Assembly: GCA_963741085.1 (NCBI GenBank) | Contig: CAVUGM010000004.1 | Location: 141,988-205,987, forward strand | DNA: 64,000 nucleotides | Direction of reading: 5' to 3' | From: an uncultured Chloroflexia bacterium | GTDB lineage: Bacteria; Chloroflexota; Limnocylindria; Limnocylindrales; CSP1-4 | Shown here: positions 3,646-64,000 of the stretch, one piece after another | Layout: each line of letters begins with the position of its first letter | How positions within the stretch are numbered: position 1 is the stretch's first letter | Notes under the pieces: generated by a model | Database searches by the model: none | What the model saw: only the letters and a program-made list of their open reading frames with translations | Told to the model about the DNA's origin: nothing | Position numbers and translations under genes: made by a program

Positions 3646-5132
3646 ATGGCGGCTCAGGCGCTCGGTCCCGGCACGACGATCGTCCGACGACGCGCCTTCT
3701 TCGGGCTGCTCGACGCCGGCGGCTGGGCCTGGGCGTTCCTCAAGGCCGTTCTTCTGGTTCGTCGTGATCGTCATGATGATCGCCTGGCTTCCGGACCGGG
3801 CGCTGTATGCCACCGTTCAGCCCACGATCGAGCTCGGGGTGCCGCTCTCGACGTTCAACAGCAGCCTCGACGTGACTCCGATCAACCTGTGCCCGCCGAC
3901 CATCCAGACGCTGCCCTGCCCGGCCCCGGTCGGCGCCGTCCTGCCCTGGCAGCCGAACCCGCCCGAGCTGGGTCTGCCCGCAGGCGCGCACCAACGCGGC
4001 GATCGTCGCCGCCGGCCGCCAGACGCTCCTCGTCGGCGGCTCGGACGGCAAGGCCGCCCAGGCGAGCGTCTTCGCCACCGTGCTCCGATCAGACGGCAAC
4101 ATCGACGGCTGGAACGCAGGCCCGGCCCTGCCGGCTCCCCGCGCCGGTGCCGCGGCGGTCTTCTTCTCGGGCTCGGCGTACGTCATCGGGGGCCTCGACG
4201 CCGGCGGCCAGCCGACCGACACGGTCTTCGTCGGCACGCCTGACGCCAGCGGCAACGTCACCTCGTGGACCGAGTCCACGGACCTCAAGCTCCCCGCCCC
4301 CATCGCCGATGCGACAGCGATCGTCACGGGGGACGGGATCTTCCTCGTCGGCGGGCGGGACGCCAAGGGCCCGGTCGCCAACGTCTGGAAGGCCCAGCTC
4401 GTCTCCACGACCGGCAAGCTCAAGCCCTGGCAGCCGGCCGCGGCGCTGCCGGCACCCCGCGAGGGGGCGACGGCGGTTCTCGCAGGGACGCACCTGTTCG
4501 TCTACGGCGGCGAGGACGCCAGCGGCCCGACCGCCGTGGTCGTGCGCGGTGAGATCGGCACGTCTGGCGACCAGCTCGGCCAGATCACCGGCTGGTCCAC
4601 GCCGACCGCGGATGCGGCCGCCACGACGAACCTCCCGAAGGCTGCCCGAGGCGCCGTCGGCTTCGTCTCCAACGGGACCCTCTACTACGTGGGCGGCGAG
4701 GGAAGCGGGACGCTGTACTGGACGATCCCCGACACCCAGGGCAACCTGACGGGCTGGAAGACGCTCGCCCAGAGCAACCTGCCGGCGAACCTGCAGCTTG
4801 TCGATGCTGCGCCGATCGTCAACGGCTCGAACGCCTTCCTGATCGGCGGCACGGCCGGTGGGGCGCCGACGCAGGGGATCGCGCGGGCGAACCTGGCGCC
4901 GCCCCTGCCGTTCTTCCGCCTCGGCCTCTTCTACGTCACCCTGCCGGCGCTCGGAATCCAGGGAGAGGTTGGCCAGCAGCTCTCGTACCTCGTCGCCGCC
5001 GGCGTGGCGACGACGGACTTCGTCATCCTGCTGATCATCGGTTACGCGTACAACCACCCCAAGCAGACCGGGCTCTTCTTCAACCGGATCCGCGACCGCC
5101 GCCGTCGCCGCGGTGGCCCACCCACTGCCTGA
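3646..5132 (+). CDS. Membrane-anchored Kelch-repeat beta-propeller protein (two frameshifts)
   Basis: N-terminal TM, repeats YVIGG, FLVGG, FVYGG, YYVGG, FLIGG, C-terminal TM and basic tail; pieced from ORFs starting at 3646, 2552 and 4080. Confidence 0.75.
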
Positions 5133-5511: not shown

Positions 5512-6053
5512 CAGGCGCCGCCCTTGGTTCGGATCGCGGGGAGATGGAGACCGAGAGGTGGCTGCCACGATCGCGCGGGCGGCCCGGCGACCTCGTGGGA
5601 GGGCGGATCGGGGAGGCGGTCCTTCGCTTCCGGGCTCGCGGGCGTGCCCATCGTCACTTCGGCCAGGCACGCGTCAACGTCGTGGATCAGCGCCGGCAGG
5701 TCCATGCCGGCGTCCAGCCCCGCGTCCTGCGCCCGTGCCAGGCGCTCCCGCGAACCGCGCAGGTTGGTCGCTACGCCGGCGGGATTGCCGCGGGCCGCGT
5801 GCACGCCGGCGGCTGCCAGCTTGATGAGCCCGGCCAGCAGCTCGCGCTCCGCCGGGTCGTCGGCGGCCATCCAGGCCGGCTCGAGCTCCTCGTGGGCCAG
5901 GTAGAAGGCGCCGCGGGCATAGGCGTCGAGGCCGCGTGCCTGGGCGGCCGCGCGCTCCGACTCCGGCAGGGGACGGTACGCCTTGGACCGGCCGCGGGGA
6001 TCGACGATGCGGCCCGGCGCATCGGCCGGCAGGAAGGAGCCGTCTCCCGTCAT
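5511..6053 (-). CDS. DUF309 family protein
   Basis: GLDAYARGAFYLAHEELEPAW...GLIKLAAAGVH motif; stop overlaps the rhodanese ATG. Confidence 0.75.
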   Translation of the reverse strand: MTGDGSFLPADAPGRIVDPRGRSKAYRPLPESERAAAQARGLDAYARGAFYLAHEELEPAWMAADDPAERELLAGLIKLAAAGVHAARGNPAGVATNLRGSRERLARAQDAGLDAGMDLPALIHDVDACLAEVTMGTPASPEAKDRLPDPPSHEVAGPPARSWQPPLGLHLPAIRTKGGA

Positions 6054-6493
6054 CGCAGCTCGACGAGTGGCTTGCGTCCCGCGACCCCGGCCGTGAGCTC
6101 GTGCCACCAGGCGACGTCATCCTCGCCAAGGCGCCAGCAGAGCCACACCTGGCGGCCGTTGACCAGCGCGGGGAAGTCGATCAGGCCGGTCTCGATGTCG
6201 CGGAGGGTGATGCTCCGGCCGTCGAGGCGCTCGACCGCCGCCTGCATCTGGTCGATCACCGCCTGCATCCGCGCCGCGAGGACCTGCGACGACTCGGGGG
6301 TGCCGGCGCTCGCGTCCGTCAGCGCCTCGTCGACGAGGGAGCCGCGCCCGCCGGGAACCTCCGCGCCGCTTGCGGCATGCAGGCGATCGCGAAGGGTGAC
6401 GAGCTCCCTCCGCCGGGCCTGCAGGTCCTCCAGGATGCCGCGTACCTCCGCGAGCTGCGCGTTCGCCCGGTCGAGTGTGTAGAAGGTTGCCAC
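6050..6493 (-). CDS. DUF2203 family protein
   Basis: FYTLDRANAQL; LRDIETGLIDFP; LCWRLGE..WWHELTAGVAGRKPL. Confidence 0.85.
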   Translation of the reverse strand: MATFYTLDRANAQLAEVRGILEDLQARRRELVTLRDRLHAASGAEVPGGRGSLVDEALTDASAGTPESSQVLAARMQAVIDQMQAAVERLDGRSITLRDIETGLIDFPALVNGRQVWLCWRLGEDDVAWWHELTAGVAGRKPLVELR

Positions 6494-6622
6494 GCGGCCA
6501 TTCTACCGAGGGAGTCGCAGGGGCCCCCGGGGCGCGCTGCTCCCGCCCACACCGCCGTCGCTGCCCGGCCGGGTGGCCGGGCGCGCCTGCGCCGGCTCGG
6601 CCCGCTATCGTTCGGAGAGCGT

Positions 6623-6821: not shown

Positions 6822-9800
6822 ATGACGACGCGCTGCGACGCATGTGCGACCGAGAACCCGGCCACCTCCCGTTTCTGCGGGAGCTGCGGGGCCGCGCTCG
6901 GCCAGCGCTGCCCGGTCTGCTCGGCTCCGGTCATCCGTGGCTTCCGCTACTGCGGCTCATGCGGCACCGAGCTGGCGGCCGAGCCGACTCGCTCAACGAG
7001 CGGAGCCGACGGCACGGGCGAGTCTTTCGCGAGCCGGACCGGCGAGCCGATCGCCGTCGTGCCGAGCGCCGAGCGGCGACGCGTGTCGATCCTGTTCGTC
7101 GACCTCGTCTCCTTCACGGCCCGATCCGAGGACCGCGATCCGGAGGAGGTTCAGGAGCTGCTGGCCCGCTACTTCGAGTCCTGCCGCGGGATCATCGCCC
7201 GCTACGGCGGGACGGTCGAGAAGTTCATCGGCGACGCGGTCATGGCGATGTGGGGCGCGCCCGTCGCGCACGAGGACGACGCGGAGCGGGCCGTGCGGGC
7301 GGCCGTCGAGCTTGTGGCCGCGGTCGCCGCGGTCGGGGAGCAGGTCGGCCTGCCGCGGCTCGCGGCGCGGGCCGGGGTGGTCAGCGGCGAGGCGGCGGTC
7401 ACGGTGGGCGCCGTCGGCCAGGGAATGGTCGCCGGGGACGTGGTGAACACGGCCTCGAGGCTGCAGGCGGCGGCGCGAGCGGGGACCGTCCTCGTGGACG
7501 AGTCCACGTACCGCGCCGTTCACGGTTCCGTGACCTTCGAGCGGGCCGGGGAGCGATCGCTCAAGGGAAAGCGTCTGCCGGTCCCGGCCTGGGAGGCCGG
7601 AAAGGTCGTTGCGCGCCGACGAGGCGAGGGCCGGAGCGTCCTGCCCGAGGGCCCGCTGGTGGGCCGCGAAAGCCTCGTGGCGATCGTCAAGAGTCTCCTC
7701 GCGGCCGTCCGCGACGAGCGCAGCCCGAGGCTCGTCTCGCTCTTCGGCCAAGCCGGCCTGGGCAAGAGCCGAATCGCCTGGGAGCTCGAGAAGTACGTCG
7801 ACGGCGTGGTCGAGAAGATCCGCTGGCATCGGGCCCGCTCGCCGGCCTATGGCGAGGGTCTCGCGTTCTGGGCCCTGGCCGAGATGGTCCGCAGCCGGGC
7901 CGAGATCACCGAGGACGATCCCCCAGATGTCGCCCGCCGACGGCTCGCCGCCTGTCTTGCCACGTACGTCCCCGACGAGGGGGAGCGGCGCTGGATCGCA
8001 CCCTACCTGGCCGGGCTCATCGGCGCCGGCCCGGTGCCCGGTGGCGAGCGCGCCGAGGCCTTCGCCGCGTGGCGGACCTTCTTCGAGCGGGTCGCCGACA
8101 CCGCCACCACCGTCCTCGTGTTCGACGATCTGCAGTGGGCCGATCCCGGCCTGCTCGACTTCATCGAGTACCTCGTCGACGCCTCGACCGGGCGACCGAT
8201 CCTGGTCGTCACCCTCGCTCGGCCGCAGCTCCTCGACATGCGTCCCACGTGGGGCGCCGGCCGGCGCAACTTCATCGCCCTCCACCTCGACCCGCTCCCA
8301 CCCCCGGCCATGGCCCAGCTGCTCGGAGACCTCGCCCCGGGTCTGCCCGCCGACGTCGCCGAACGCATCCTCGAGCGGGCCGAGGGTATTCCTCTCTACG
8401 CCGTCGAGATCCTCCGGATGCTGGTCGACCGTGGCGCGCTCGAGGCGGTCGACGGGGTCTATGAGGTCCGGAGCCGGCTCGAGCGACTGGCCATCCCGGA
8501 GAGCCTCCACGCCCTCGTCGCTGCCCGGCTTGACGACCTCGAACCGATTGATCGGGCGCTCGTCCGCCACGCTGCCGTGCTCGGGCAGGCGTTCCTGCCG
8601 GCCGCCCTGGCCGCCATCGACGGAATTGAGGCCGGGGCAGTCGAGCCCCATCTCCGGCGGCTGGTTCAGCGGGAGCTCCTTTCGCTCGAGACCGACGAGC
8701 GGTCGCCGAGCCGCGACCGCTACCGGTTCGCCGAGGCGCTCGTCCGGGAGGTCGCCTATGGCACCCTGTCGCTGCGCGACAGGCGCGAGCGGCACCTGGC
8801 CGCCGCCGCCTACTTCGAGTCGGTCGACGATCCCGACCTCGCCGGCGCCATCGCCAGCCATGTCCTGTCGGCCTATCGGTCAGGGCCGCCAGCCCGGCCC
8901 GACCCGGGGCTCGCGACCCGAGCTGTGACCGCCCTGCGCGCTGCTGCCGATCGGGCGGCCGCGCTCCACTCGCCCGCGCAAGCGCTGGAGTACCTCGAGG
9001 GCGCCCTCTCGGTGACCGCCGACGACACCGAGCGGGCGCAGCTCTGGGAGCAGGCTGCGATCGCCGCCCAGGCGACCGCACGTCTGAAAGATGCCGCCAG
9101 CTATGCCCGTCAGGCCGTGGACTGGCACGCGGCCCACGGGGATCGCTCGGCCCGGGCGCGGACGACCGCGCGGCTGGGTTCCATCCTTGCCCTCGAGTAC
9201 GAGACCGAGGCGTCGATCGCCGTCGTCCGGGCCGCCCTCGACGAGCTCGTCGGCGACGGCGTCCTGGGCGACGATCCGGAGCTCGTCGGGCTCATGGCCA
9301 ACCTGGCCCGGGCATATCTCCTTGGCGGCCGGTTCGAGGACGCCGTCGCGTGGGCTGAACGGGCCATCCGGGAGGCCGAGCGGCTCGGCCTCCGGACGAT
9401 CGTAGCCGAGGCGCTGGCGACCAAGGGTGCGGCCCGGCTCGAGGAGGGCCGCAACGCGGAAGGGATCGGACTGCTTCGCGGATCCCTGGCGATGTCCGAG
9501 GAGCACGGCCTGGTCGTGCCGGCGCTCCGGGCCCGGAACAGCATCGCGGTGGGCCTGTTGACCGATGACCCGCGGGCCGCCTTCGCGATGTCGGATGCCG
9601 GGCTCGAGACGGCCCGGCGTCTCGGGCTGCTCGACGTGGCCGTGCGACTGGCCAGCAACTGGGCCGGGGCTGGGCTCGACATCGGGGCCTGGGACCAGGT
9701 CCTGGCTACGATCAGCGAGCTCGACCACGACGACCTGCCGGTCCCGGACCGGATCGACCTCGGCTCGGTGGTGGCCACGATCCTGACCTGGCGCGGCGAG

Positions 9801-10430
9801 CCGGACGCGGATGGCCGGTTCGCGCGCCTCGCGGCGCTCCTGGCGACCCAACCGGACACGCTAGCCTCGTCGGTGCTGCTGGCCCGTCGGTCGCTCGCGC
9901 TCCTGTCGCTCGGTCGAGCTCGCGAAGCCCTGGCTCACACGGAGGCGACCACCCTGGCGCTCTCTTCGACCGGCCTGTCGACGATGCTCCTCGAGAACTC
10001 GGTCCTGACGACCCGGGCGGCGCTCTGGGCGGCCGACCGCGGCCGCCTCGCAGGAGCGCTCGACGCGATCCGGGCGCGTGGACCCCGGGGCCGCTGGCTG
10101 ACCGCCGTGGCGACCACGCTCGCGGCCGGCCTCGACGCCCTCGACGGCAGGACCGCGGCGGCCCGCGACCGGTACGACCTCGCCGCCGCCCGCTGGCGGA
10201 CGCTGGATGTGCCGCTCCAGCTCGCCCTCTGTCAGGTCGAGGCCGCCCACTTCCTGCCGCCCGGAACTGTCGAGGCGGCGGCCGCGGCCGCCGAGGCCAG
10301 GACGATCCTCGCCGGTCTCGGCGCCGTGGCGTTCATCTCGAGGCTGGACGGGGATCTCGCCGAGCCGTTGTCGGCCGCGGCCACGGGCGGACCGCCGACG
10401 ACGGGCGACCCGCTTACCGGGTCTGCTTGA
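6822..10430 (+). CDS. Double zinc ribbon + class III nucleotide cyclase + STAND-type AAA ATPase + TPR protein
   Basis: Four CxxC pairs; LFVDLVSFT, EKFIGDAVM, GDVVNTASRLQ; Walker A GQAGLGKS, Walker B LVFDDLQWAD; helical repeats. Confidence 0.9.
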   Translation: MTTRCDACATENPATSRFCGSCGAALGQRCPVCSAPVIRGFRYCGSCGTELAAEPTRSTSGADGTGESFASRTGEPIAVVPSAERRRVSILFVDLVSFTARSEDRDPEEVQELLARYFESCRGIIARYGGTVEKFIGDAVMAMWGAPVAHEDDAERAVRAAVELVAAVAAVGEQVGLPRLAARAGVVSGEAAVTVGAVGQGMVAGDVVNTASRLQAAARAGTVLVDESTYRAVHGSVTFERAGERSLKGKRLPVPAWEAGKVVARRRGEGRSVLPEGPLVGRESLVAIVKSLLAAVRDERSPRLVSLFGQAGLGKSRIAWELEKYVDGVVEKIRWHRARSPAYGEGLAFWALAEMVRSRAEITEDDPPDVARRRLAACLATYVPDEGERRWIAPYLAGLIGAGPVPGGERAEAFAAWRTFFERVADTATTVLVFDDLQWADPGLLDFIEYLVDASTGRPILVVTLARPQLLDMRPTWGAGRRNFIALHLDPLPPPAMAQLLGDLAPGLPADVAERILERAEGIPLYAVEILRMLVDRGALEAVDGVYEVRSRLERLAIPESLHALVAARLDDLEPIDRALVRHAAVLGQAFLPAALAAIDGIEAGAVEPHLRRLVQRELLSLETDERSPSRDRYRFAEALVREVAYGTLSLRDRRERHLAAAAYFESVDDPDLAGAIASHVLSAYRSGPPARPDPGLATRAVTALRAAADRAAALHSPAQALEYLEGALSVTADDTERAQLWEQAAIAAQATARLKDAASYARQAVDWHAAHGDRSARARTTARLGSILALEYETEASIAVVRAALDELVGDGVLGDDPELVGLMANLARAYLLGGRFEDAVAWAERAIREAERLGLRTIVAEALATKGAARLEEGRNAEGIGLLRGSLAMSEEHGLVVPALRARNSIAVGLLTDDPRAAFAMSDAGLETARRLGLLDVAVRLASNWAGAGLDIGAWDQVLATISELDHDDLPVPDRIDLGSVVATILTWRGEPDADGRFARLAALLATQPDTLASSVLLARRSLALLSLGRAREALAHTEATTLALSSTGLSTMLLENSVLTTRAALWAADRGRLAGALDAIRARGPRGRWLTAVATTLAAGLDALDGRTAAARDRYDLAAARWRTLDVPLQLALCQVEAAHFLPPGTVEAAAAAAEARTILAGLGAVAFISRLDGDLAEPLSAAATGGPPTTGDPLTGSA

Positions 10431-28060: not shown

Positions 28061-30745
28061 CTACTTCGTCGCGGACGGGTCGACGACCCGGCCCATGAAC
28101 AGGACCGCACCGGTCGCGACGTCGCGCAGGACGAACAGGAATGGGTGGTCCAGGCGGAGCGTGATCGTCTTGAGCGGACTCGGTCCGCCACCGGTGCTCA
28201 TGCCGACGGCGGTTGCCGCTGCGGCTTCGGTGCCCTTCTCGTCGACGTCGATATTGGCCTGGTGCACGACCTTGCTGATGTAGATGCCATCGCCGGATGA
28301 CCGGGGGACGTGGATCCCCGCGAAGTCGGCGCCCTCGGGCTGGAAGGCGAGCGGCATGCCGGCCGACGCCAGGACCTTGTTGAGCACCGTGCGGGTCTCG
28401 ATCCGGAAACGAGGCATCGACAGCTCCAGGTCGTACGGGTAGCAGCCGCCCATCCCCCAGCCACTGGGACACGCGAGCCCGCCCTCCCATCCCCGTCGCT
28501 CACGGTCGAGGGCCGCGGTGATCGAGGCAAGTCGGGCCGGCGTCAGGCCGCGTTCGAAGGAGGCGAGGCTCGTCGGCATGATGAGCGTCATCGCGAGCGG
28601 CTTCCCGCCCTCCGGGCTCATGTACCGGAGCTCGGTGGCCTGCCAGCCGCTGCCCCTGGAATACGGGGCGACCGTGTCGAACCCGAAGTGCCCGACCATC
28701 GTCGGTACCGAGACGCGGCTGCCATCCAGGCGTGTGAAGGTCCGCGACGCGGTCTCCTCGATCTCGAACCATTTCTCCCACATTGCCTTGAGGTAGACCG
28801 CGTTGACCAGGTAGAGCCGTGTGTCGGTCGTCACGTCCGGGGCCAGGAGGAGCTCCGGGATCCGGCCACCGGTCTTCGACTTCACCCAGCTGTTGATCGT
28901 CCGCCGTGCCCCATCCGGGTTCCGGATGTAGTCGACAAGGCGCAGGCCGGCACCGAACGTGGCGGCGACCTGGTCGAGGTAGCCCTGCACGATCGGCCAA
29001 CCTGCCTGGGCCCACGTGCCGTTCGCCAGGGCCAGCGTCTGCTGGCGGGCGGTGCCGTCTGGGTCCTTCCAGGCCACGTTCCGAGATTCCAGCTCCTGCG
29101 TCAGCGCGTTGAGGCCGGGTCCGAGGGCATTCCAGCCCGGCGTGTGCAGGACCGCGTCCATCTGCGTGGCCGTCGCGCCTTTCGACCCGGCGCGGGCCAT
29201 CCCCAGGGCGACGACGACGCTCGTGGGTGAGAAGACGGCGTTCCTCTTCGCATCCAGGGTGCCGTCGGCCAGCATCCGCCTGTACAGGTCGAGGCCGAAG
29301 GCGGTGATCGAGGCGGACGCCTTCCTGGCGTCGGCCGGGTTCGCCGTCGCCCGCGGGCTGTTCGAGCGGGCCAGGGTTGCCGGCTGCTTCACCGGCGGCG
29401 GGAAGGATGCGAGGTTGCCGGGGACGTACCGGACGGCCGCAGCGACGGGCTCGGGGCACCAGGGCGTGCTCGGCTCGCCGACATAGCCGGCGTCGCCGCC
29501 GACGAGGAGGAGCGTGCGATCCGGAAGCGTGACGAACGTGCCGCCCTCGCGCGGCTGCGCCAGCGGCGCCGCCGGCGACCACGTAGCGGTCGCGGGGTCG
29601 TACAGCGACGCCTCGACGAGCGCTGGGCCAGTACCCGGGTTGTCACTGCTGCCGACCCGCCCTATCCCGCCGGCGACGAACACCCGCCCGTCTCCGAGGA
29701 GCGTGGCGCTCGCGTTCGAGGCCGGTGCAGGCATCGCAGCCACCTGGACCCAGGTCCCGCCCGTGTCGAGCGGGTCGAAGCGGTCGGCAGCCGCGGTGAC
29801 CTCTCCGTCCACGGTGCCGCCGGCGACGAGCGCGCCGCCTCCCGGCAGCGCCGCCAGGACGAAGTCACGGCGCGGCGCAAGCATGCCGCCGGCCGCCGTC
29901 CAGGCTCCCGTCGACGGGTCGTAGATCTCGGCGGACGCCAGCGGGTCGCCGGACGGGCCCTCGCCGCCCACGACGAGCACTCGTCCATCAGAGAGCGTGG
30001 TGGACCGCGGGCCGCTCCGGGCCGTCGTCATGGACCCGGTCTCCGACCACGACCCCGTCTCCGGGTCGTAGAGTTCGGCGCTCGCGAGGACGCGGCTGGC
30101 GGTCGCGTCCACGTAGGCGCCACCCGCAACGAGCACGGTTCCGTCGGGAAGAAGTGCCGCGGTCGGCTCTGTCCGGGCGACGTTCAAAAGCCCGCTCGCC
30201 GTCCACGCGCCGGCCTTCGGATCGTAGAGCTTCGTGCTCGAGTAGGAGCCGAACGCCCCTTCGGCGGGGCTGGCCGAGGTGAGCCCGCCGACAACGAGGA
30301 CCCGCCCGTCGGGCAGGCCCACCGCGACGAAATCGGTGCGCGGTGCGTTGAGGCTGCCGGTTGCCTTGGAGGTCCGGGCGGGCGGGTCCAGGACCTCGGC
30401 CTGGACGCTGTCGTCCCAGGCTCCGCCGGGGGTGCAGATGTTGTCGTTGCCGACGATGAGGACGCGGCCGTCGGCGAGCGTCACCGCGTGCGCGCTCGCG
30501 CGCCCGAGGGCGAGCGCGCCGGCCGCCTGCCAGCGGCCTTCCGCCACGGGCGCGGTCGGGGTGACCGTGCCCGGGGTCGAATTCGGAGATGGCGATGCCG
30601 GGGTCGCGGCGGGAGTGGAAGGTGGCGGTGGCGCCGACGCCGAGGCCGGCGGGAAGGGTGATGTCGGCGTCGAGCCGCAGCCGGCGACGATGATCGCGAT
30701 CGCGATGGCTGAGAGCGTCCTGCGCGGGCCGAGGCGCTGCATCAT
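28061..30745 (-). CDS. Lipoprotein: Kelch beta-propeller fused to a serpin
   Basis: Lipobox IVAGC; repeats LxDGRVLxxGG..AELYDP; serpin FSPTS, LVNAVYLKAMW, DVDEKGTEAAAAT, DHPFLFVL. Confidence 0.9.
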   Translation of the reverse strand: MMQRLGPRRTLSAIAIAIIVAGCGSTPTSPFPPASASAPPPPSTPAATPASPSPNSTPGTVTPTAPVAEGRWQAAGALALGRASAHAVTLADGRVLIVGNDNICTPGGAWDDSVQAEVLDPPARTSKATGSLNAPRTDFVAVGLPDGRVLVVGGLTSASPAEGAFGSYSSTKLYDPKAGAWTASGLLNVARTEPTAALLPDGTVLVAGGAYVDATASRVLASAELYDPETGSWSETGSMTTARSGPRSTTLSDGRVLVVGGEGPSGDPLASAEIYDPSTGAWTAAGGMLAPRRDFVLAALPGGGALVAGGTVDGEVTAAADRFDPLDTGGTWVQVAAMPAPASNASATLLGDGRVFVAGGIGRVGSSDNPGTGPALVEASLYDPATATWSPAAPLAQPREGGTFVTLPDRTLLLVGGDAGYVGEPSTPWCPEPVAAAVRYVPGNLASFPPPVKQPATLARSNSPRATANPADARKASASITAFGLDLYRRMLADGTLDAKRNAVFSPTSVVVALGMARAGSKGATATQMDAVLHTPGWNALGPGLNALTQELESRNVAWKDPDGTARQQTLALANGTWAQAGWPIVQGYLDQVAATFGAGLRLVDYIRNPDGARRTINSWVKSKTGGRIPELLLAPDVTTDTRLYLVNAVYLKAMWEKWFEIEETASRTFTRLDGSRVSVPTMVGHFGFDTVAPYSRGSGWQATELRYMSPEGGKPLAMTLIMPTSLASFERGLTPARLASITAALDRERRGWEGGLACPSGWGMGGCYPYDLELSMPRFRIETRTVLNKVLASAGMPLAFQPEGADFAGIHVPRSSGDGIYISKVVHQANIDVDEKGTEAAAATAVGMSTGGGPSPLKTITLRLDHPFLFVLRDVATGAVLFMGRVVDPSATK

Positions 30746-57339: not shown

Positions 57340-59194
57340 GTGACGACCACGAAGGGCCACGAGGTCCCGGTCCAGGCGCTGGACCGGGTGACGATCCGCT
57401 TCGCGGGTGATTCCGGCGACGGGATGCAGCTGACCGGCACCCAGTTCACGCGCGCCGCCGCCGTCTTCGGCAACGACATCAGCACGCTGCCCGACTACCC
57501 GGCCGAGATCCGGGCGCCCGCGGGCTCGCTGCCCGGCGTCTCGGGCTTCCAGATCAGCTTCAGCTCGAGCGACATCCATACGCCGGGTGACGCGCCGGAT
57601 GTCCTCGTGGCGATGAACCCCGCCGCCCTCCGCGCCAACGTCGGGGACCTCGTCCCCGGCGGCGCGATCGTCGTCAACGCCGACGCGTTCACCCCGAACA
57701 ACCTGACGAAGGCGGGCTACGCATCGAATCCGCTCGTCGACGGGGCGCTGAAGCCCTACTCGGTCTTCGAGATCCCGATCTCGACCCTCAACGCGCGGGC
57801 CCTCGAGGGGCTCGACATGACCGCCAAGCAGGTCGACCTCACCAAGAACTTCTTCGCCCTCGGCGTGATGTTCTGGCTCTTCGAGCGCAGCATGGATTCG
57901 ACCCAGCGCTGGATCGAGGAGAAGTTCGCCAGTCGTCCGATCGTCGCCCAGGCGAACCGGCGCGCCCTCGGCGCGGGCTACGCCTTCGGCGAGACCACCG
58001 AGATCTTCCACACCCGCTACGACGTTCCGGCCGCGCACCTGGCCCCCGGCACGTACCGCAACGTCACCGGCAACGAGGCGACGGCACTTGGCTGCGTCGC
58101 CGCCTCGGTCCTGTCGGGGCGGCCGCTGGTCTACTCGACCTACCCGATCACGCCGGCGTCGGACATCCTGCACCAGCTCGCCGGCTACAAGCAGTACGGG
58201 ATCAAGACCTTCCAGGCCGAGGACGAGATCGCCGCCATCGGTGCCGCACTCGGCGCCTCCTACGGCGGTGCCCTCGGGCTCACCGGCACGTCGGGGCCCG
58301 GGATGGCGCTCAAGGCGGAGATGCTCGGCCTGGCCGTGATGGTGGAGCTGCCCGCTCGTCGTGGTGAACGTCCAGCGCGGCGGGCCCTCGACCGGCCTGC
58401 CCACGAAGACGGAGCAGTCGGACCTCCTCCAGGCGCTCTACGGACGCAACGGCGAGTCGCCCGTCGCGGTCGTCGCGCCGGCCTCGCCGGCCGATTGCTT
58501 CGACGTGGCGATCGAGGCGTGGCGGATCGCGCTCAAGTACATGACCCCGGTCGTCGTTCTCAGCGACGCATTCCTGGCGAACGGCACCGAGCCGTGGCGC
58601 GTGCCCGCCCTCGACAGCCTCCCCGACCTGCACACCCCGGCCCGCGACGAGACGGTCACCTTCTTCCCGTACCAGCGCGACGCGGAGACGCTGGCCCGAC
58701 CGTGGGTCGTGCCGGGCACCCCGGGGCTCGAGCACCGGATCGGTGGCCTCGAGAAGCTCGACGTCCTCGGCACGGTCAGCTACGACGCCGACAACCACCA
58801 CCGGATGTCGATCCTGCGCGCCGAGAAGATCGCGGGGATCGCCCGCGACATCGCCCCCCTGGAGGTCCTCGGGCCGCCCGAAGGGGACCTGCTCATCCTC
58901 GGCTGGGGATCCACGTACGGCGCCATCCGGACTGCCGTGGAGCGGCTCCAGGCGCGGGGTCGGAAGGTCTCCCAGGCCCACCTGCGCCACCTGAACCCGT
59001 TCCCTGCCAACACCGGCGAGGTCCTGCGGGGCTTCGACAAGGTCCTGGTTCCCGAGGTCAACCTCGGCCAGCTGCGGACCCTCGTGCGCGCCGAGTTCCT
59101 GGTCGACGCGATCGGCTTCAACCTCGTGCGCGGCAAGCCGTTCTCCATCGGGGAGATCGAGGCCAAGGCCGAGCAGCTGCTCGGCAACCTGTGA
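57340..59194 (+). CDS. korA: 2-oxoacid:ferredoxin oxidoreductase alpha subunit (frameshift near 58350)
   Basis: FAGDSGDGMQLTG, YPITPAS, QAEDE, QRGGPSTGLPTK, GWGSTYG. Confidence 0.93.
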
Positions 59195-59204
59195 GGCCGG
59201 CTCG

Positions 59205-60242
59205 ATGACCGAACAGACCGCGACGGCCGCCGAGCCGCTCAAGCTCACTCGCAAGGACTTCGCGAGCGACCAGGATCCGCGCTGGTGCCCGGGCTGCGGC
59301 GACTACTCGATCCTGGCCCAGACGCAGAAGATCATGCCCGACTTCGGGGTGCCCAAGGAGAAGATCGTCTTCGTGTCCGGGATCGGCTGCTCGGGCCGCT
59401 TCCCGTACTACATGAACACGTACGGGTTCCATTCGATCCACGGCCGCGCCCCGACCGTCGCGACCGGTCTCAAGCTCGCCCGCCCCGACCTCATGGTGTG
59501 GGTGATCACCGGCGACGGCGATGCGCTCTCGATCGGCGGCAACCACATCCTCCACGCGATGCGCAAGAACGTGGACATCCGCGTCGTGATGTTCAACAAC
59601 CGGATCTACGGCCTCACCAAGGGCCAGGCCTCGCCGACGTCCGAGTTCGGGCAGCGCACGAAATCGACTCCGGTCGGATCCATCGACTACCCGATCCACC
59701 CGCTCATGATCGCGCTGGCCGCCGAGGCGAGCTTCGTCGCCCGCACCGTCGACACGCAGGTGGACCATATCCAGCACGTGATGGAGCGGGCCGGCTTCCA
59801 CCGCGGCTCGACGTTCGTGGAGGTCCTCCAGAACTGCAACATCTTCAACGACGGCGCCCACCGCTCGTTCACCGACCGCGAGGTACGCGACGACCGGATG
59901 CTCGTCCTCGAGCATGCCAAACCGATGATCTTCGGGAAGGGCCGCGACTTCGGCCTGCGGCTCGACGGCCTCCGGCCCGAGGTCGTGCGGATCGGCGAGA
60001 ACGGCATCACCGAGGCCGACATCCTGGTCCACGACGAGACCAGCGAGGACCCGACGATCCACAACATGCTGGCGCGGATCTACCAGCCGGAGTTCCCGGT
60101 CCCCATCGGCGTGATCCGGAACGTCCCCCGTCAGACCCACGACGAGCTGATCGAGGCGCAGATCCGCGACGCCGTCGGCCGCCACGGGGCCGGCGACATC
60201 GCCCGGCTGCTCCGCTCCGGCGAAACCTGGACCGTCGAGTGA
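59205..60242 (+). CDS. korB: 2-oxoacid:ferredoxin oxidoreductase beta subunit
   Basis: WCPGCGD, SGIGCS, IHGRA, GDGD, NNRIYGLTKGQ. Confidence 0.95.
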   Translation: MTEQTATAAEPLKLTRKDFASDQDPRWCPGCGDYSILAQTQKIMPDFGVPKEKIVFVSGIGCSGRFPYYMNTYGFHSIHGRAPTVATGLKLARPDLMVWVITGDGDALSIGGNHILHAMRKNVDIRVVMFNNRIYGLTKGQASPTSEFGQRTKSTPVGSIDYPIHPLMIALAAEASFVARTVDTQVDHIQHVMERAGFHRGSTFVEVLQNCNIFNDGAHRSFTDREVRDDRMLVLEHAKPMIFGKGRDFGLRLDGLRPEVVRIGENGITEADILVHDETSEDPTIHNMLARIYQPEFPVPIGVIRNVPRQTHDELIEAQIRDAVGRHGAGDIARLLRSGETWTVE

Positions 60243-60742: not shown

Positions 60743-61911
60743 GCGCCCCGGCCCGGGCCGGCGATGCCGCGGCCGGCGATCCCTGCGTCCCGGTATGGCG
60801 ACCGGATCGCTCGCTCGCAGGCGGGAGCCCGGGCCCGTGGCCTCGACGCCCTGCTCGTCGGGGTCGGGCCGGACCTCCGGTATCTCGCCGGGCTACGCGG
60901 CGATGCCACTGGAACGGCTCACGATGCTGGTGCTGCCAGCCGAGGGACCGGCGACGCTGCTCGTGCCGCGCCTCGAGGCGGCGCCGGCCCGCGCGTGCCC
61001 CGCGGCAACCGGCTCTCACGTGACAGTCGCCACGTGGGAGGAGACCGAGGATGCGGTCGGTCGCGTATGCGATCTCCTGCCCGGCGCAAGCGGCGCGCAT
61101 CGGTGTCTCCGACCGGCTCTGGGCGCTCCACCTGCTTCGCCTCCAGGCCGCCCTACCTGGAGTGGTCGCGGAGCCGGCGTCGCTCGTTCTGCGCGACCTG
61201 CGCGTGGTCAAGGACGCGGACGAGATCGCCCTCCTGCGGCTCGCCGCGGAAGCCGCCGACCGCGTCGTCCACGAGGTGGCCCACGGGCGACTCGTCGGCC
61301 GTACAGAGGCCGACGTCGCCCGGGAAGTCCGCGATCGCCTCGTGGACGAGGGTCACGACAGCGCCGATTTCGCCATCGTCGCCTCCGGCCCGAACTCGGC
61401 CTCGCCGCACCACGAGGCGTCCGACCGGGTGATCCGCGGCGGCGAGCCGATCGTGCTCGACATCGGCGGACCGCTTGGAGGCTACGGCAGCGACATCACG
61501 CGGACGATCTGGGTCACCGGGGGCGACGCCGCCCACGGACCCGACGACGAGTACCTGCGCCTCTACTCCGTGCTGCGAGCCGCCCAGGCCGAGGCAACCC
61601 ACGCGGCGAGGCCGGGTGTGGCCTGCGAGCGGGTCGATCTCGTCGCCCGCGAGCTGATCTCGGCGGCCGGGCACGGGATGCACTTCATCCACCGCACGGG
61701 CCACGGCATCGGCCTTGAGGCCCACGAGGATCCGTACATCGTGGCCGGCAACGGCGAGGCGCTCGCGCCCGGAATGACCTTCAGCGTGGAGCCGGGGATC
61801 TACCTCGATGGCCGATACGGAGCACGCATCGAGGACATCGTCGTCTGCGGCGAGGACGGCCCGATCGTGCTCAACGAGGCGCCGCGCGACCTCCTCGTCG
61901 TGACCGGCTGA
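60739..61911 (+). CDS. M24 family Xaa-Pro peptidase (frameshifts)
   Basis: DLRYL, PHH, LDIGG, SDITRT, HRTGHGIGLEAHE, VEPGIY, RIEDIV. Confidence 0.9.
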
Positions 61912-62040: not shown

Positions 62041-62128
62041 CGGGCGGTATGATCGACCCCAGCCTGCGGGACGCCTGCCCGCCTGATCAGCCACCATGCG
62101 CGGCTCGGCGCCGCGGAGCTGCAGAGCC

Positions 62129-62569
62129 ATGACAGAGCACGCGCTGGAGCGAGCCGTCCAGCCAGATTCCGCCGCCTCACCAGCGCCCCTCCAGGGCGTC
62201 CTCCAGGAGAACCACCCCGGGAACCGTGGCGGGGAGTCCTGGAACGGGAACGCCGCGCCCGATGATTCCGTTGCCCGGGGAGAGAGCCCCGCGACCTGCA
62301 CCCAGGCCCAGCTGCGGCGCTTCATCAAGAGCCGGCCCTACGTTCCGCTCCACGAGCTGCGTCGCCGCTTCGGCCTCAGCGGCCCCGACGACGACGTGTC
62401 GCCCGTTGACGTCGATGGACGCCGCGTCTTTGTCGGCCTCCCTGCCCGGGAAACAGGGCTCCTCGGGGAGCTCCTGCGCCAGGGCGACGTGGGCTACGAG
62501 CTGTTGCTCGACCCGACGAGCCCGATCATCATCGGCGTCTTCCCGATGCGGCCGGTCCAGCGATCCTGA
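62129..62569 (+). CDS. Hypothetical protein, possible winged-helix-like domain
   Basis: Disordered N-terminus then QLRRFIKSRPYVPLHELRRRF...GDVGYEL..IIIGVFP. Confidence 0.65.
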   Translation: MTEHALERAVQPDSAASPAPLQGVLQENHPGNRGGESWNGNAAPDDSVARGESPATCTQAQLRRFIKSRPYVPLHELRRRFGLSGPDDDVSPVDVDGRRVFVGLPARETGLLGELLRQGDVGYELLLDPTSPIIIGVFPMRPVQRS

Positions 62570-62697
62570 CCGCGACCATTGTCGCCGAGCCGACAGCCCG
62601 GGCGTCATCTTGTCACTTCCGCTCGACGACCGTTCCGGTCATCATCCGGGAACCGGCGCGGGCCGGCGGCACCGCACGACCACCACGGAGGATTGAC

Positions 62698-63330
62698 ATG
62701 ACGACCGCGAAACCGTCGCCGGACGACCTCAAGAAACTGGCGCCCGACGACCTCAAGAAGGCGTCCGCCGATGACGACGTCGAGGGTCACCTCAAGAAAC
62801 TGGCTCCCGACGACCTCAAGAAGCTGGCGCCCGACGACCTCAAGAAGGCGTCCGCCGATGACGACGTCGAGGGCCACCTCAAGAGAACTGGCCCCGACGA
62901 CCTCAAGAAGGCGTCCGCCGATGACGACGTCGAGGGCCACCTCAAGAAACTGGCCCCCGACGACCTCAAGAAGCTGGCGCCCGACGACCTCAAGAAGGCG
63001 TCCGCCGATGACGACGTCGAGGGCCACCTCAAGAAACTGGCTCCCGACGACCTCAAGAAGCTGGCGCCCGACGACCTCAAGAAGGCGTCCGCCGATGACG
63101 ACGTCGAGGGCCACCTCAAGAAACTGGCTCCCGACGACCTCAAGAAGCTGTCGCCCGACGACCTCAAGAAGGCGTCCGCCGATGACGACGTCGAGGGCCA
63201 CAACTTCGGCACCCTGAGCCCGATCCTCGCCCGCGACCTCATGCGGTCAAAGGAGCGCGACATCGAGCGCGCGGCGTCCAGGAACAACCTGATCAACGAG
63301 GCGAAGAAGGGGACAACCCGCAAGGCGTGA
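62698..63330 (+). CDS. Nested tandem-repeat protein with six DDDVEGH motifs
   Basis: RBS ggagg; units LKKLAPDD-LKKLAPDD-LKKASADDDVEGH; synonymous third-position differences between copies; unique 42-aa C-terminus. Confidence 0.8.
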   Translation: MTTAKPSPDDLKKLAPDDLKKASADDDVEGHLKKLAPDDLKKLAPDDLKKASADDDVEGHLKRTGPDDLKKASADDDVEGHLKKLAPDDLKKLAPDDLKKASADDDVEGHLKKLAPDDLKKLAPDDLKKASADDDVEGHLKKLAPDDLKKLSPDDLKKASADDDVEGHNFGTLSPILARDLMRSKERDIERAASRNNLINEAKKGTTRKA

Positions 63331-63363
63331 TCCCACATCCTCCGGGGTCGAACGCGCACCGGG

Positions 63364-63393
63364 CGTGAGGGCGGGCGGGGGCCCGCCCTCACG
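63364..63393 (+). terminator. Hairpin after the repeat-protein gene
   Basis: Perfect 13-bp stem cgtgagggcgggc / gcccgccctcacg, 4-nt loop. Confidence 0.7.
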
Positions 63394-63480
63394 GCGTTCT
63401 CGGCGATTCCGTTGTCACCGCGTCGGCCGCCCCGTAGCATTCAGCTGTCGTGGCGCCGGCCTGATCGCGGGAGGAAGAGT

Positions 63481-64000
63481 GTGGCGGCGGAGATGCGGGT
63501 GAATGCCGGAGAGGCGCTGCGTCGGTGCGCCCTCTTCTCGCGCGTCGACGACCCGACGTTGGGGCGCTGCATCGACTCGCTGCGCAGCCGGCGCTATCGA
63601 CGCAACGAGACGATCTTCCATCAGGGTGACCCCGGGGACTCGCTCTACGTGATCCAGGCCGGCGCGGTGAAGATCGTCCTGCCTGACCCCGAGGGCGAGG
63701 AGGGGGCCATCATCGCCACCCTCGGCGCCGGAGACTTCTTCGGCGAGCTCGCGCTGCTCGATGGCGAGCCGCACTCCGCGACCGCGATCGCCCTCGAGGC
63801 GACCGAGGCCCTGGTCCTGCACCGCGACGCGTTCGATCGCCTCGTGGACGAGGATCCGAGCCTCCGCCGTGCACTCTTCGCCGGCCTCGTCGGCGAGCTG
63901 CGTCGGTTGACCCATCATGTCGGGGAGCTGCACTTCCTCAACCTGCCGGGACGCCTTGCCCGCCAGATCGTGCGGATGGCCCGCGAGGCCGACCCGTCCG
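63481..64000 (+). CDS. Crp/Fnr family regulator, cyclic-nucleotide-binding domain (3' end outside window)
   Basis: Manual translation: IFHQGDPGDSLYVIQAGAVKI..GDFFGELALLDGEPHSAT..LPGRLA; RBS ggagga. Confidence 0.9.
   Translation, partial: MAAEMRVNAGEALRRCALFSRVDDPTLGRCIDSLRSRRYRRNETIFHQGDPGDSLYVIQAGAVKIVLPDPEGEEGAIIATLGAGDFFGELALLDGEPHSATAIALEATEALVLHRDAFDRLVDEDPSLRRALFAGLVGELRRLTHHVGELHFLNLPGRLARQIVRMAREADPS

What the first reader, a model, noticed from the sequence alone, without database searches (positions are those of the whole stretch)
62698..63393. Orphan multi-core repeat protein (6x DDDVEGH): candidate precursor of an undescribed peptide system
Seen: 210-aa ORF with RBS and its own downstream hairpin, built hierarchically. 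A 24-bp unit (LKKLAPDD; PDDLKK occurs 11 times) is nested in an 87-bp unit ending in invariant ASADDDVEGH (6 copies, one unit shortened to 63 bp), followed by a unique helical basic tail. Copies differ mostly at synonymous sites, so the peptide appears to be under selection. No signal peptide or Cys. Established: invariant recognition motifs alternating with short cores and dibasic sites are the layout of multi-core RiPP and repeat-processed signal-peptide precursors. Inference: DVEGH is a protease or receptor recognition motif, or a His/acid metal site. Neighbours (unknown HTH-like gene, Crp regulator, M24 peptidase) and the TPR cyclase are candidate partners. No modifying enzyme is visible in the window.
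Basis: partly seen in the sequence, partly recalled or inferred. Interest (0 to 1): 0.8.

Follow-up and report, generated by a model that had tools for sequence, protein, structure and literature searches.

The report
Repeat protein tied to a protease module
This repeat-rich small protein is real and belongs to a conserved, undescribed gene module of uncultured soil Chloroflexota, in which proteins carrying the invariant motif DD(V/T)EGH sit beside a regulator, a sensor protein, a subtilisin-like protease and a transporter, so it is probably cut by that protease.

Summary
It is not an orphan. Relatives with 1-12 copies of an invariant DVEGH motif occur in 28 Chloroflexota MAG loci, and 298 short metagenomic proteins match; none has a name or a Pfam family.

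The gene travels with a Crp-family regulator, a GAF protein, a cytoplasmic S8 (subtilisin-like) peptidase and an MFS transporter fused to a cNMP-binding domain. The last three lie just beyond the window end. This linkage survives three different gene orders, including a second family where the repeat gene lies between crp and the GAF gene (16 of 16 loci). The module is missing as a block from two genomes of the same genus.

A palindrome, TGTCG-N6-CGACA, lies upstream of the repeat genes in 26 of 26 and 45 of 67 cases. About 0.013 would be expected by chance.

Best reading (inferred, confidence about 0.45): a Crp-controlled multi-site substrate or precursor, cut by the GAF-S8 protease at each DD(V/T)EGH. 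No modifying enzyme was found, so it is not a demonstrated RiPP.

The parts
62580..62595 (.). Palindromic box TGTCGCCGAGCCGACA (TGTCG-N6-CGACA), the candidate operator of the module's Crp-family regulator. Its centre is about 110 nt upstream of the ATG.
   Evidence: It is one of only 4 exact matches in the 3.14-Mb genome. The same box, with at most 1 mismatch, lies upstream of the repeat gene in 26 of 26 loci L001-L028 that hold upstream sequence. It also lies within 450 nt upstream of 45 of 67 motif arrays in L030-L096. The background is 92 sites per 3.14 Mb, or 0.013 per 450 nt. Binding by Crp is inferred, not shown.
62687..62691 (+). Ribosome-binding site GGAGG, 6 nt before the start codon.
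   Evidence: Read directly from the sequence.
62698..63330 (+). Coding sequence of the DD(V/T)EGH-repeat protein (210 aa plus stop).
   Evidence: ORF list. GC3 is 0.90. Homologues were found.
62698..63201 (+). Repeat region of six units, each ending in ASADDDVEGH (residues 1-31, 32-60, 61-81, 82-110, 111-139, 140-168). Each unit holds one or two 8-aa sub-repeats (L/S)(A/S)PDDLKK.
   Evidence: TRF and unit dissection. DVEGH is invariant in all 28 aligned loci. Repeat number ranges from 1 to 12 and the period from 14 to 41 aa across loci. This region is predicted unstructured, pLDDT 56-57.
63202..63327 (+). Conserved basic C-terminal tail (NFGTLSPILARDLMRSKERDIERAASRNNLINEAKKGTTRKA), predicted as one long helix at about 63220-63321.
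   Evidence: Alignment A3 has G, A, R, S and R invariant in the tail across 28 loci. AlphaFold2 places a helix at residues 25-58 of 60, pLDDT about 80. The tail is specific to this sub-type: the second family's repeat proteins and the 'type-2' proteins lack it.
63364..63393 (+). G+C-rich hairpin (13-bp stem, 4-nt loop) 34 nt after the stop codon. It is a likely terminator or attenuator between the repeat gene and crp.
   Evidence: RNA fold. It has no T-run, so the consensus terminator scan does not list it.
63412..63440 (+). Promoter-like site TTGTCA-17-TAGCAT in front of crp.
   Evidence: Consensus scan: 1 site found against 0.0 expected. This is a consensus match only.
63493..64000 (+). 5' part of the Crp-family regulator gene (cNMP-binding domain). 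The gene runs past the window end and is frame-broken in this assembly.
   Evidence: Pfam cNMP_binding 6.2e-29. HTH_Crp_2 lies in another frame just beyond the window. An orthologue is adjacent in 28 of 28 loci. The next genes lie beyond the window, given here in window-equivalent coordinates: GAF protein at about 64200-65019, S8 peptidase at 65016-65855, and MFS_3 plus cNMP-binding transporter at 65922-67711 on the minus strand.

Best explanation
The gene encodes a disordered, highly charged protein. Its only constrained elements are a short linear motif, A-(T/V)-(E/D)-D-D-(V/T)-E-G-H, repeated six times here, and a basic C-terminal helix. It is one component of a conserved accessory module in uncultured Chloroflexota. 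The module consists of one or more DD(V/T)EGH-repeat genes, a Crp-family regulator, a GAF-domain protein translationally coupled to a cytoplasmic S8 peptidase, and usually an MFS_3 transporter fused to a cNMP-binding domain. The proposed mechanism has three steps. First, the Crp regulator binds the TGTCG-N6-CGACA box in front of each repeat gene and switches it on or off in response to a cyclic nucleotide. Second, the GAF-gated S8 peptidase recognises each DD(V/T)EGH, with V/T-E-G-H occupying P4-P1 as in ordinary subtilisin substrates. It cuts the protein into its units, which are 21-31 residues long here. Third, the fragments act as peptides, possibly exported by the linked transporter, or the cutting simply destroys the protein. 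Shown: the family, the invariant motif, the gene linkage across rearrangements, the operator and the intact catalytic residues. Inferred: binding of Crp to the box, recognition and cleavage by S8, and any role of the fragments.
For: 1. Family. DVEGH is invariant in 28 of 28 loci, while spacer length (period 14-41 aa), spacer sequence and copy number (1-12) vary freely. A further 298 proteins of 33-109 aa match at E<=0.01.
2. Linkage within the family f1. An S8 orthologue is present in 75 of 121 genomes. Tallied by hand against the strict DDVEGH DNA pattern, the table is: both 56, pattern only 11 (isolated single hits), S8 only 19, neither 35. Of those 19, 15 do have D(V/T)EGH genes within 4 kb once variants are allowed. 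The expected number by chance is about 0.012 per locus.
3. Rearrangements keep the linkage. In f1 the order is repeat-crp-GAF-S8, with a second, tail-less DDVxGH gene convergent on S8 in 11 of 28 loci. In G496 the whole block sits away from M24 and the upstream ORF. In family f3 the repeat gene lies between crp and the GAF gene in 16 of 16 loci fetched, with the MFS next to it in 13 of 16. Of 28 metagenome contigs recruited through the repeat protein alone, 24 carry crp, GAF, S8 or MFS.
4. Same-genus genomes G253 and G088 keep M24 and the upstream ORF but lack the whole block.
5. The operator data are given under 'parts'.
6. The S8 catalytic residues D50, H94, N178 and S238 are invariant in 43 orthologues. 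No hydrophobic signal-like stretch is visible in its N-terminus by eye.
7. The complex prediction of S8 with the last unit plus tail gave weak support. The score was 0.39 (runs 0.34, 0.39, 0.41) and the best of 3 controls was 0.03. The pass mark was reached by 58 of 80 solved complexes and 2 of 110 mismatched pairs, but at 0.60 or under by only 7 of those 80 and by both mismatches that passed. The runs share at least 64% of contacts and the partner's pLDDT is at least 46. No interface was given.
8. Precedent: the S8 protease PatA cleaves after GLEAS in repeated cyanobactin cassettes (PMC4282754, passage read; PMC4663559, passages read).
Against: No cleavage has been observed and no peptide detected. 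The complex score is in the band where passes are more often wrong than right without a strong prior. No contacts were returned, so it is unknown whether the motif sits in the active-site cleft. Solved subtilisin-inhibitor and propeptide complexes could also inflate the score from memory. Gene linkage fits a regulator, inhibitor or scaffold of the protease as well as it fits a substrate. The products would be odd peptides: low-complexity, zwitterionic, without Cys and without a signal peptide. An MFS pump is an unusual exporter for 14-40-residue peptides. The basic helical tail of this sub-type has no role in the model. Four of the 19 'S8 only' loci show no strict motif gene; one of these has only 2 nt of upstream flank and one has only an EDVEAH variant. 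22 of 67 arrays have no box within 450 nt. Genomes within a family are related, so the co-occurrence counts overstate independence. Evidence for expression is a single 117-nt contig from an RNA library with 3 mismatches.
Confidence: 0.45

Rival explanations
1. The repeat protein is a multivalent regulator, not a substrate. It would present many pseudo-substrate or docking motifs that hold, inhibit or scaffold the GAF-S8 protease or the GAF protein. The basic helix would anchor it to a third partner such as DNA, RNA, a membrane or Crp.
For: It rests on the same linkage evidence as the best explanation and the same weak complex score. Free variation of linker length and sequence around a fixed motif is typical of multivalent disordered binders. 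The conserved helix calls for a partner that the cleavage model does not supply.
Against: The helix is absent from the f3 repeat proteins and from the type-2 proteins, so it cannot be essential to the shared function. Single-motif members exist (L024, L027), which argues against a need for multivalency. V/T-E-G-H matches an ordinary subtilisin P4-P1 substrate pattern; that preference is recalled general knowledge and was not tested here.
Confidence: 0.2
2. It is an acidic, His-bearing disordered protein that binds metal ions or acts as a hydrophilin-like stress protein. It would be co-regulated with the neighbouring genes but not processed by them.
For: The composition is D 42, K 36 and H 6 of 210, with no Cys and no aromatic residues except one Phe. 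The repeat part is predicted disordered. Asp, Glu and His are metal ligands; this is general knowledge.
Against: Generic metal binding or hydration would not keep a nine-residue motif invariant while everything around it changes. There is only one His per 14-41 residues. The strict linkage to an S8 peptidase through three gene orders would be unexplained. No Pfam or NCBIfam family for LEA proteins, hydrophilins or metallochaperones matches. The Pfam hits (CAAP1, AvrM_N and others) are inflated by the repeats and unrelated to each other.
Confidence: 0.12
3. It is a true multi-core RiPP precursor whose modifying enzyme lies elsewhere in the genome or is one of the uncharacterised module proteins.
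For: Conserved recognition motifs alternate with hypervariable stretches, and a dedicated S8 protease and a transporter are present, as in cyanobactin clusters (PMC4663559 passages). The S8 scores 103.6 bits against the QhpE model, a protease that matures a cross-linked peptide, though the cutoff is 165.
Against: No heterocyclase, radical-SAM enzyme, ATP-grasp, YcaO, lanthipeptide synthetase or similar enzyme appeared among the module genes or their immediate neighbours in the arrangements examined. Those calls searched only with the six window-derived proteins plus Pfam on this genome's flank, so an unrelated enzyme in other loci could have been missed. The upstream ORF gives only weak winged-helix-like fold matches (E>=0.25) and is not linked to the module. 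The spacers lack Cys and are poor in Ser/Thr here. The PatA/PatG model scores 32.6 against a cutoff of 421.
Confidence: 0.08

Closest known systems
Cyanobactin precursors (PatE) with the subtilisin-like proteases PatA and PatG
   Same: One gene holds several cassettes. Short conserved recognition sequences flank hypervariable stretches, and an S8-family protease is encoded next to it. PatA cuts after G-L-E-A-S (PMC4282754). Here the candidate site ends V/T-E-G-H, sharing a hydrophobic or beta-branched P4, a Glu at P3 and a small P2.
   Different: There is only one small (about 280 aa) S8, without the DUF or macrocyclase insert. The PatA/PatG model scores 32.6 bits against a cutoff of 421. No heterocyclase, prenyltransferase or oxidase was found. 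The organisms are Chloroflexota, not cyanobacteria. The spacers are charged and low-complexity. The module has Crp, GAF and cNMP sensor domains, which the passages read on cyanobactin clusters do not mention.
Yeast prepro-alpha-factor processed by Kex2 (a kexin, family S8). This comparison is recalled, not from a call.
   Same: Tandem copies of a unit in one precursor are cut at a short repeated site by a dedicated subtilase, and acidic spacer residues sit next to the site.
   Different: Alpha-factor is a secretory-pathway substrate with a signal peptide and dibasic sites, and its released unit is the conserved part. Here there is no signal peptide, the candidate site is acidic plus His, and the conserved part is the site while the unit between sites varies.
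Crp/FNR-family regulons
   Same: A regulator with cNMP-binding and HTH_Crp_2 domains is paired with a 16-bp palindrome with a TGT-N10-ACA frame upstream of the target genes.
   Different: The half-site is TGTCG rather than the classical TGTGA (recalled). The ligand and the binding were not tested. The apparent regulon in this genome may be as small as this one gene, since 2 of the other 3 exact boxes lie inside ORFs with coding-like composition.
Intracellular subtilisins (for example PDB 7y6m) and regulated subtilases such as PopC/PopD of Myxococcus (the latter recalled)
   Same: A cytoplasmic S8 domain without an I9 propeptide is encoded with a partner protein that could gate it. Its best PDB relatives are subtilisin BPN' (1.6e-23) and an intracellular serine protease (1.3e-18).
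   Different: The partner here is a GAF-domain protein, and no GAF-gated subtilase was found in the literature search. No named S8 subfamily model reaches its cutoff: mycosin 114.8 against 278.75 and QhpE 103.6 against 165.

Membership tests
Peptidase family S8 (the linked protease, not the repeat protein) | Asp-His-Ser catalytic triad in subtilisin order, plus the oxyanion Asn | tested here: met
   Pfam Peptidase_S8 3.7e-29. D50, H94, N178 and S238 are invariant in 43 orthologues.
Cyanobactin pathway (PatE/PatA/PatG) | Two PatA/PatG-type proteases with a DUF domain, one of them carrying a macrocyclase insert | tested here: not met
   There is one S8 of 279 aa. TIGR03895 scores 32.6 bits against a cutoff of 421.05.
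Cyanobactin pathway (PatE/PatA/PatG) | A precursor with repeated cores flanked by conserved recognition sequences | tested here: inconclusive
   The layout is analogous. There is no sequence similarity to PatE-type leaders and no evidence of cleavage.
RiPP precursor (general) | A co-encoded enzyme that modifies the core peptide beyond proteolysis | tested here: not met
   Pfam on this genome's flanks gives only Crp, GAF, S8, MFS/cNMP, MGMT, M24 and OFOR. The other loci were screened only with these proteins, so absence there is not proven.
RiPP precursor (general) | A RiPP recognition element (PqqD-like) near the precursor | tested here: not met
   The upstream ORF folds confidently (pLDDT 86). 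Foldseek gives only weak winged-helix-like matches (E>=0.25), and the gene is not linked to the module.
Graspetide (multi-core omega-ester/amide peptides) | An ATP-grasp ligase next to a precursor with repeated Thr/Ser/Lys...Asp/Glu cores | tested here: not met
   There is no ATP-grasp domain among the genes flanking the repeat gene in this genome.
Crp/FNR regulon member | A palindromic TGT-N10-ACA type operator upstream, together with a Crp-family regulator | tested here: met
   The box is at 62580-62595. It is conserved in 26 of 26 and 45 of 67 upstream regions, against 0.013 expected. Protein-DNA binding is not testable with these tools.
Secreted pheromone or polyprotein precursor (Kex2/alpha-factor type, Phr type) | An N-terminal signal peptide that routes the precursor to an extracytoplasmic protease | tested here: not met
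   The N-terminus MTTAKPSPDDLKK has no hydrophobic stretch. None was seen by eye at the N-terminus of the S8 either. No signal-peptide predictor was available.
LEA or hydrophilin stress proteins; metallochaperones | A match to a described family model | tested here: not met
   There is no such Pfam or NCBIfam match. The Pfam hits are repeat-inflated and mutually unrelated.

The most novel reading that the evidence does not exclude
The module is a cyclic-nucleotide-gated peptide factory. Three separate nucleotide-sensor domains would coordinate transcription (Crp), processing (the GAF protein gating S8) and export (the CAP domain on the MFS pump). The substrate is a tandem-repeat precursor whose variable units become species-specific peptides for signalling or antagonism. 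This would be a bacterial counterpart of the Kex2/alpha-factor logic. It would be found in one of the most abundant uncultured soil lineages, with a fast-evolving 'cassette' region that diversifies by unit duplication.
Probability: 0.22. Interest if true: 0.85.

Novelty: new variant of a known kind. Interest (0 to 1): 0.62.

Why it matters
If the reading holds, it defines a protein family that the libraries and papers searched here do not describe, and a five-part gene module in uncultured soil Chloroflexota, several of them labelled Limnocylindria/Limnocylindrales by their depositors. These organisms cannot yet be grown, and next to nothing is known about their regulation or cell-cell interactions. 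The module gives three concrete, cheap in-vitro tests: protease with substrate, regulator with a 16-bp box, and sensor domains with nucleotides. These could assign function to five gene families at once. The motif-plus-variable-spacer design is also a natural, sequence-programmable protease substrate. If the fragments are active peptides, it would be a new source of ribosomal peptides that does not depend on known RiPP enzymes, so genome-mining tools would miss it. If instead the protein only regulates or feeds the protease, it is still a clean example of a short linear motif kept invariant while the rest of the protein turns over by repeat expansion.

Tried and rejected
- Pfam on the repeat protein gave CAAP1, AvrM_N and 13 other unrelated families, each aligned to a short stretch of the repeats. 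I treated these as low-complexity artefacts. NCBIfam gave nothing.
- A full-text search for 'DVEGH' found 11 papers, none relevant; they concern human peptides or unrelated words. Searches for subtilisin-like, GAF domain, precursor peptide and tandem repeats (3 papers, none relevant) and for Limnocylindria (17 papers, listing only) gave no description of such a module. Supplements were closed and could hold relevant gene lists.
- The ESM Atlas gave one cluster at score 0.76, below the level at which hits mean anything.
- The upstream ORF as a RiPP recognition element or partner was rejected.
- M24 peptidase as a partner was rejected on the same distribution evidence.
- The profile search of 401 genomes across the phylum with the tail alignment found only 4. 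The tool scored only 16 candidates per genome and missed known positives, so I did not use it to delimit the family.
- Sequencing runs: three runs hold only 5-6% of the sampled words. The DNA contigs cover the intergenic region and stop at the repeat. The RNA-library contig (117 nt on 62934-63050) is too little to claim expression.
- Of the other three exact TGTCG-N6-CGACA boxes in the genome, two lie inside ORFs with coding-like composition and the third is unresolved. I did not follow them further.
- A sixth-frame 'MTDREPAPDVEGH...' hit on contig C6 looks like a chance match and was dropped.
Full report
**Observation.** The ORF at 62698-63330 (+) encodes 210 aa. GGAGG lies 6 nt before the ATG. 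Tandem Repeats Finder reports periods of 24, 87, 63 and 150 nt at 84-97% matches. Dissection gives six units ending in ASADDDVEGH, of 31, 29, 21, 29, 29 and 29 aa. PDDLKK occurs eleven times, and the composition is dominated by D (42), K (36), L (29) and A (26), with no Cys. A 13-bp G+C hairpin follows at 63364-63393. The frame has coding-like GC1/2/3 of 0.69/0.34/0.90.

One inference does not hold from the window alone. The four full-length 87-bp units differ at only two codons, one synonymous and one not. The copies are simply young or homogenised, and within-gene comparison says nothing about selection. The aberrant unit 'LKRTGPDD' equals 'LKKLAPDD' plus a +1 G and a -1 C twelve bases later. 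The same assembly has frame-broken crp, M24 and oxidoreductase genes and only 56.75% estimated completeness for 3.14 Mb in 6 contigs. An indel error is a fair suspicion.

**The family.** A word-indexed search of 5.8 billion proteins found 14 relatives of 115-254 aa. Thirteen of them share three to five DDVEGH motifs and a conserved C-terminal tail; the weakest, P0014, has the motifs but no tail. A scan of one genome per species found 28 loci, all in Chloroflexota MAGs, one of them labelled Candidatus Limnocylindrales by its depositor.

In all 28 loci the tail is present and DVEGH is invariant. Copy number runs from 1 (L024, L027) to 12 (L026), and the period from 14 aa ('GGVRRATEDDVEGH' nine times in L004) to 41 aa. 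A profile of the last unit plus tail retrieved 298 further proteins of 33-109 aa at E<=0.01. None has a Pfam domain or a name beyond 'hypothetical protein'. Over 163 distinct units, conservation falls off sharply outside A-(T/V)-(E/D)-D-D-(V/T)-E-G-H; the last five positions are fixed there by the search pattern. Their invariance is shown independently by alignment A3.

AlphaFold2 on that alignment predicts a single helix for the tail (residues 25-58 of 60, pLDDT about 80) and no structure for the motif region (pLDDT 56-57). Within each genome the spacers are internally repetitive and nearly identical to each other. Between genomes they are unrelated. This is concerted evolution around a fixed motif. 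In 11 of the 28 loci the motif appears in more than one frame within the array. Because the motif is intact in each frame, assembly indels are the likelier cause, but this was not tested.

**The neighbourhood.** Beyond the window end lie the rest of the Crp-family gene (cNMP_binding plus HTH_Crp_2), a GAF-domain gene and an S8 peptidase gene. The start of the S8 gene overlaps the GAF stop. A convergent MFS_3 transporter gene carrying a cNMP-binding domain follows. All of these are syntenic in the 28 loci, but those loci were chosen through the repeat gene and are related to each other, so synteny alone proves little. Four further observations make the link specific.

- **Presence and absence.** In 121 genomes of the same family (f1), the strict DNA pattern for DDVEGH occurs in 67 and an S8 orthologue (E<=1e-40) in 75. 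My hand tally of the two tables gives both 56, pattern only 11, S8 only 19 and neither 35. The 11 'pattern only' genomes have isolated single hits. I fetched all 19 'S8 only' loci. Fifteen carry D(V/T)EGH genes within 4 kb once DTEGH and EDVEGH variants are allowed; of the four without, one has only 2 nt of upstream flank and one has only an EDVEAH variant. The chance expectation is about 0.012 per locus, from 12 motif hits in 6.28 million six-frame positions of this genome, six of them in this gene.
- **Block loss within the genus.** Genomes G253 and G088 keep the M24 peptidase and the upstream ORF but have no repeat gene, crp, GAF, S8 or MFS downstream. They also have no S8 orthologue or DDVEGH pattern anywhere. 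In G496 the whole block sits about 240 kb from the upstream ORF.
- **A second motif gene.** In 11 of the 28 loci a second, different motif protein is encoded convergently, right after S8. It carries '...DDDVSGH...TEDDVEGH...' and has an acidic end and no basic helix.
- **Other lineages.** In another family of the class (f3; S8 orthologue in 47 of 66 genomes, against 0 of 66 in f4 and 0 of 7 in f2), all 16 loci I fetched have a DD(V/T)EGH array. There it lies between crp and the GAF gene on the same strand, with the MFS gene adjacent in 13 of 16. These f3 proteins have basic, internally repetitive, hypervariable spacers and no conserved tail. Of 28 metagenome contigs recruited through a divergent repeat protein alone, 24 carry at least one of crp, GAF, S8 or MFS despite their short length (1-9 kb). 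The four without are L074, L079, L081 and L083.

The tallies include genomes that the tool flags as unpublished: G463 in the first, G568 and G540 in the second. No DNA was read from them.

The upstream ORF has a 90-aa conserved domain, 364 representative clusters and a confident model (pLDDT 86), but only weak winged-helix-like fold matches. It is near-universal in f1 (114 of 121 genomes), whether or not the module is present, and it is not near the module in f3.

**An operator.** The palindrome TGTCGCCGAGCCGACA at 62580-62595 is one of four exact TGTCG-N6-CGACA sites in the genome. With at most one mismatch, the box lies upstream of the repeat gene in all 26 of L001-L028 that include upstream sequence. 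By my reading of the same table it lies upstream of the type-2 gene in 9 of 11 loci. In L030-L096 it lies within 450 nt upstream of the first motif in 45 of 67 arrays with enough flank. The genome-wide density is 92 sites per 3.14 Mb, or 0.013 per 450 nt. Its TGT-N10-ACA frame is that of Crp/FNR-type sites (recalled). The obvious candidate binder is the module's own Crp protein.

**The protease.** The S8 protein has an invariant Asp, His, Asn and Ser in 43 orthologues and no evident signal peptide. Its closest solved relatives are subtilisin BPN' (1.6e-23) and an intracellular serine protease. It reaches no NCBIfam subfamily cutoff: mycosin 114.8 against 278.75, QhpE 103.6 against 165, PatA/PatG 32.6 against 421.

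A complex prediction of S8 with the last unit plus tail gave 'weak support'. The score was 0.39 (runs 0.34, 0.39, 0.41) and the best of three controls was 0.03. That mark was reached by 58 of 80 solved complexes and 2 of 110 mismatched pairs, but at 0.60 or under by only 7 of the 80 and by both mismatches that passed. The runs agree in at least 64% of contacts, the partner's pLDDT is at least 46, and no interface was reported. Solved subtilisin-ligand complexes may contribute by memory.

**Interpretation.** Several things are shown: a protein family defined by an invariant acidic-His motif; a five-part module kept together through three gene orders and lost as a block; a dedicated palindromic box; and an apparently active cytoplasmic subtilase.

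What I infer is that the motif is the recognition site of that subtilase. V/T-E-G-H fits the usual P4-P1 pattern of a hydrophobic or beta-branched P4 and a small P2 (recalled). It also resembles L/V-E-A/P-S, after which the S8 protease PatA cuts the repeated cassettes of cyanobactin precursors (PMC4282754, passage read; the VEPS variant is recalled). The general cassette logic is described in PMC4663559 (passages read). Three sensor domains, Crp-CAP, GAF and MFS-CAP, suggest control by a cyclic nucleotide at the levels of transcription, processing and transport. A class III cyclase is present in the window at 6822-10427, but nothing ties it to the module.

The rivals are a multivalent pseudo-substrate or scaffold of the protease, a co-regulated metal-binding or stress protein, and a true RiPP with an unseen enzyme. 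The first cannot be separated from the substrate model with sequence data.

**Novelty.** No family model, structure relative or paper in the searched library describes these proteins or this gene combination. The searches are limited to open-access text, and supplements were closed. By logic it is a variant of a known kind, a repeated-site substrate with a dedicated subtilase. By content it is new.

Noticed in passing
window 62096-62569 (+): The upstream ORF has a conserved 90-aa C-terminal domain after a variable, probably disordered N-terminus. It has no Pfam or NCBIfam match and 364 representative clusters, most of them 150-280 aa. The AlphaFold2 model is confident (pLDDT 86, two helices, a hairpin, a helix and two strands), with only weak winged-helix-like fold matches. 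It is near-universal in the family (114 of 121 genomes) and is an uncharacterised core gene in its own right.
   Followed up: partly
L004, L006, L009, L010, L015-L018, L021, L023, L024 (minus strand, just after the S8 gene): A second family of motif proteins ('type 2') has the pattern M-x-D-R-D-E-x-R-P-D-G-L...R-R-R-M-G-P-G-D-G-F-A-D-D-D-V-S-G-H-G-M-P-E-I-P-G-A-G-D-G-F...T-E-D-D-V-E-G-H. It has an acidic C-terminus and no basic helix, and is usually preceded by its own TGTCG-N6-CGACA box. It is absent from this window's genome.
   Followed up: partly
window 63990-64000 and beyond (crp); 60764-61911 (M24); 57340-59208 (oxidoreductase alpha): Several ordinary genes are split between frames, and the genome scores only 56.75% complete despite 3.14 Mb in 6 contigs. 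This fits frequent indel errors in a long-read assembly, so single-base features in this window should be read with care.
   Followed up: partly
L003, L005, L013, L014, L016, L017, L019, L020, L021, L025, L026 (repeat arrays near position 6000-6600): The DDVEGH motif continues intact in a different reading frame part-way through the array in 11 of 28 MAG loci. These are probably assembly indels in homopolymers. Real frameshifting or phase variation in the repeats was not excluded.
   Followed up: no
L003, L005, L007, L020 (about 4670-4780), L001 (3975) and L019 (3798 and 4249), plus 1-mismatch sites in L008, L012, L013 and L022: In L003, L005, L007 and L020 a further copy of the TGTCG-N6-CGACA box lies between the M24 gene and the upstream ORF, so the same regulator may also control that ORF in some species. 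No such site, with at most 1 mismatch, exists at that place in this window.
   Followed up: no
window 28064-30745 (-): An 894-aa protein combines Kelch repeats with a full serpin domain (Serpin 1.6e-83). This is an unusual bacterial fusion, and serpins inhibit serine proteases. No link to the S8 module was examined.
   Followed up: no
window 6822-10427 (+): A 1202-aa protein has a double zinc ribbon, a class III adenylate/guanylate cyclase domain and an AAA_16 (STAND-type) ATPase domain. It is a possible source of the cyclic nucleotide sensed by the module, but it lies 52 kb away and its co-occurrence was not tested.
   Followed up: no
window 62490-62698: Short-read soil metagenome contigs (runs X1, X2) match the intergenic region and the end of the upstream ORF at 97-99% and stop exactly where the repeat array begins. 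This shows how such arrays are lost from short-read assemblies.
   Followed up: partly
P0286, P0309, P0319, P0325 (metagenome proteins): More divergent small proteins carry 4-9 D(V/T/A)EGH motifs followed by G-x-R ('DVEGHGVRV', 'DTEGHGIRG'). Their organisms and neighbourhoods are unknown, so the motif family may reach beyond the two families examined.
   Followed up: no
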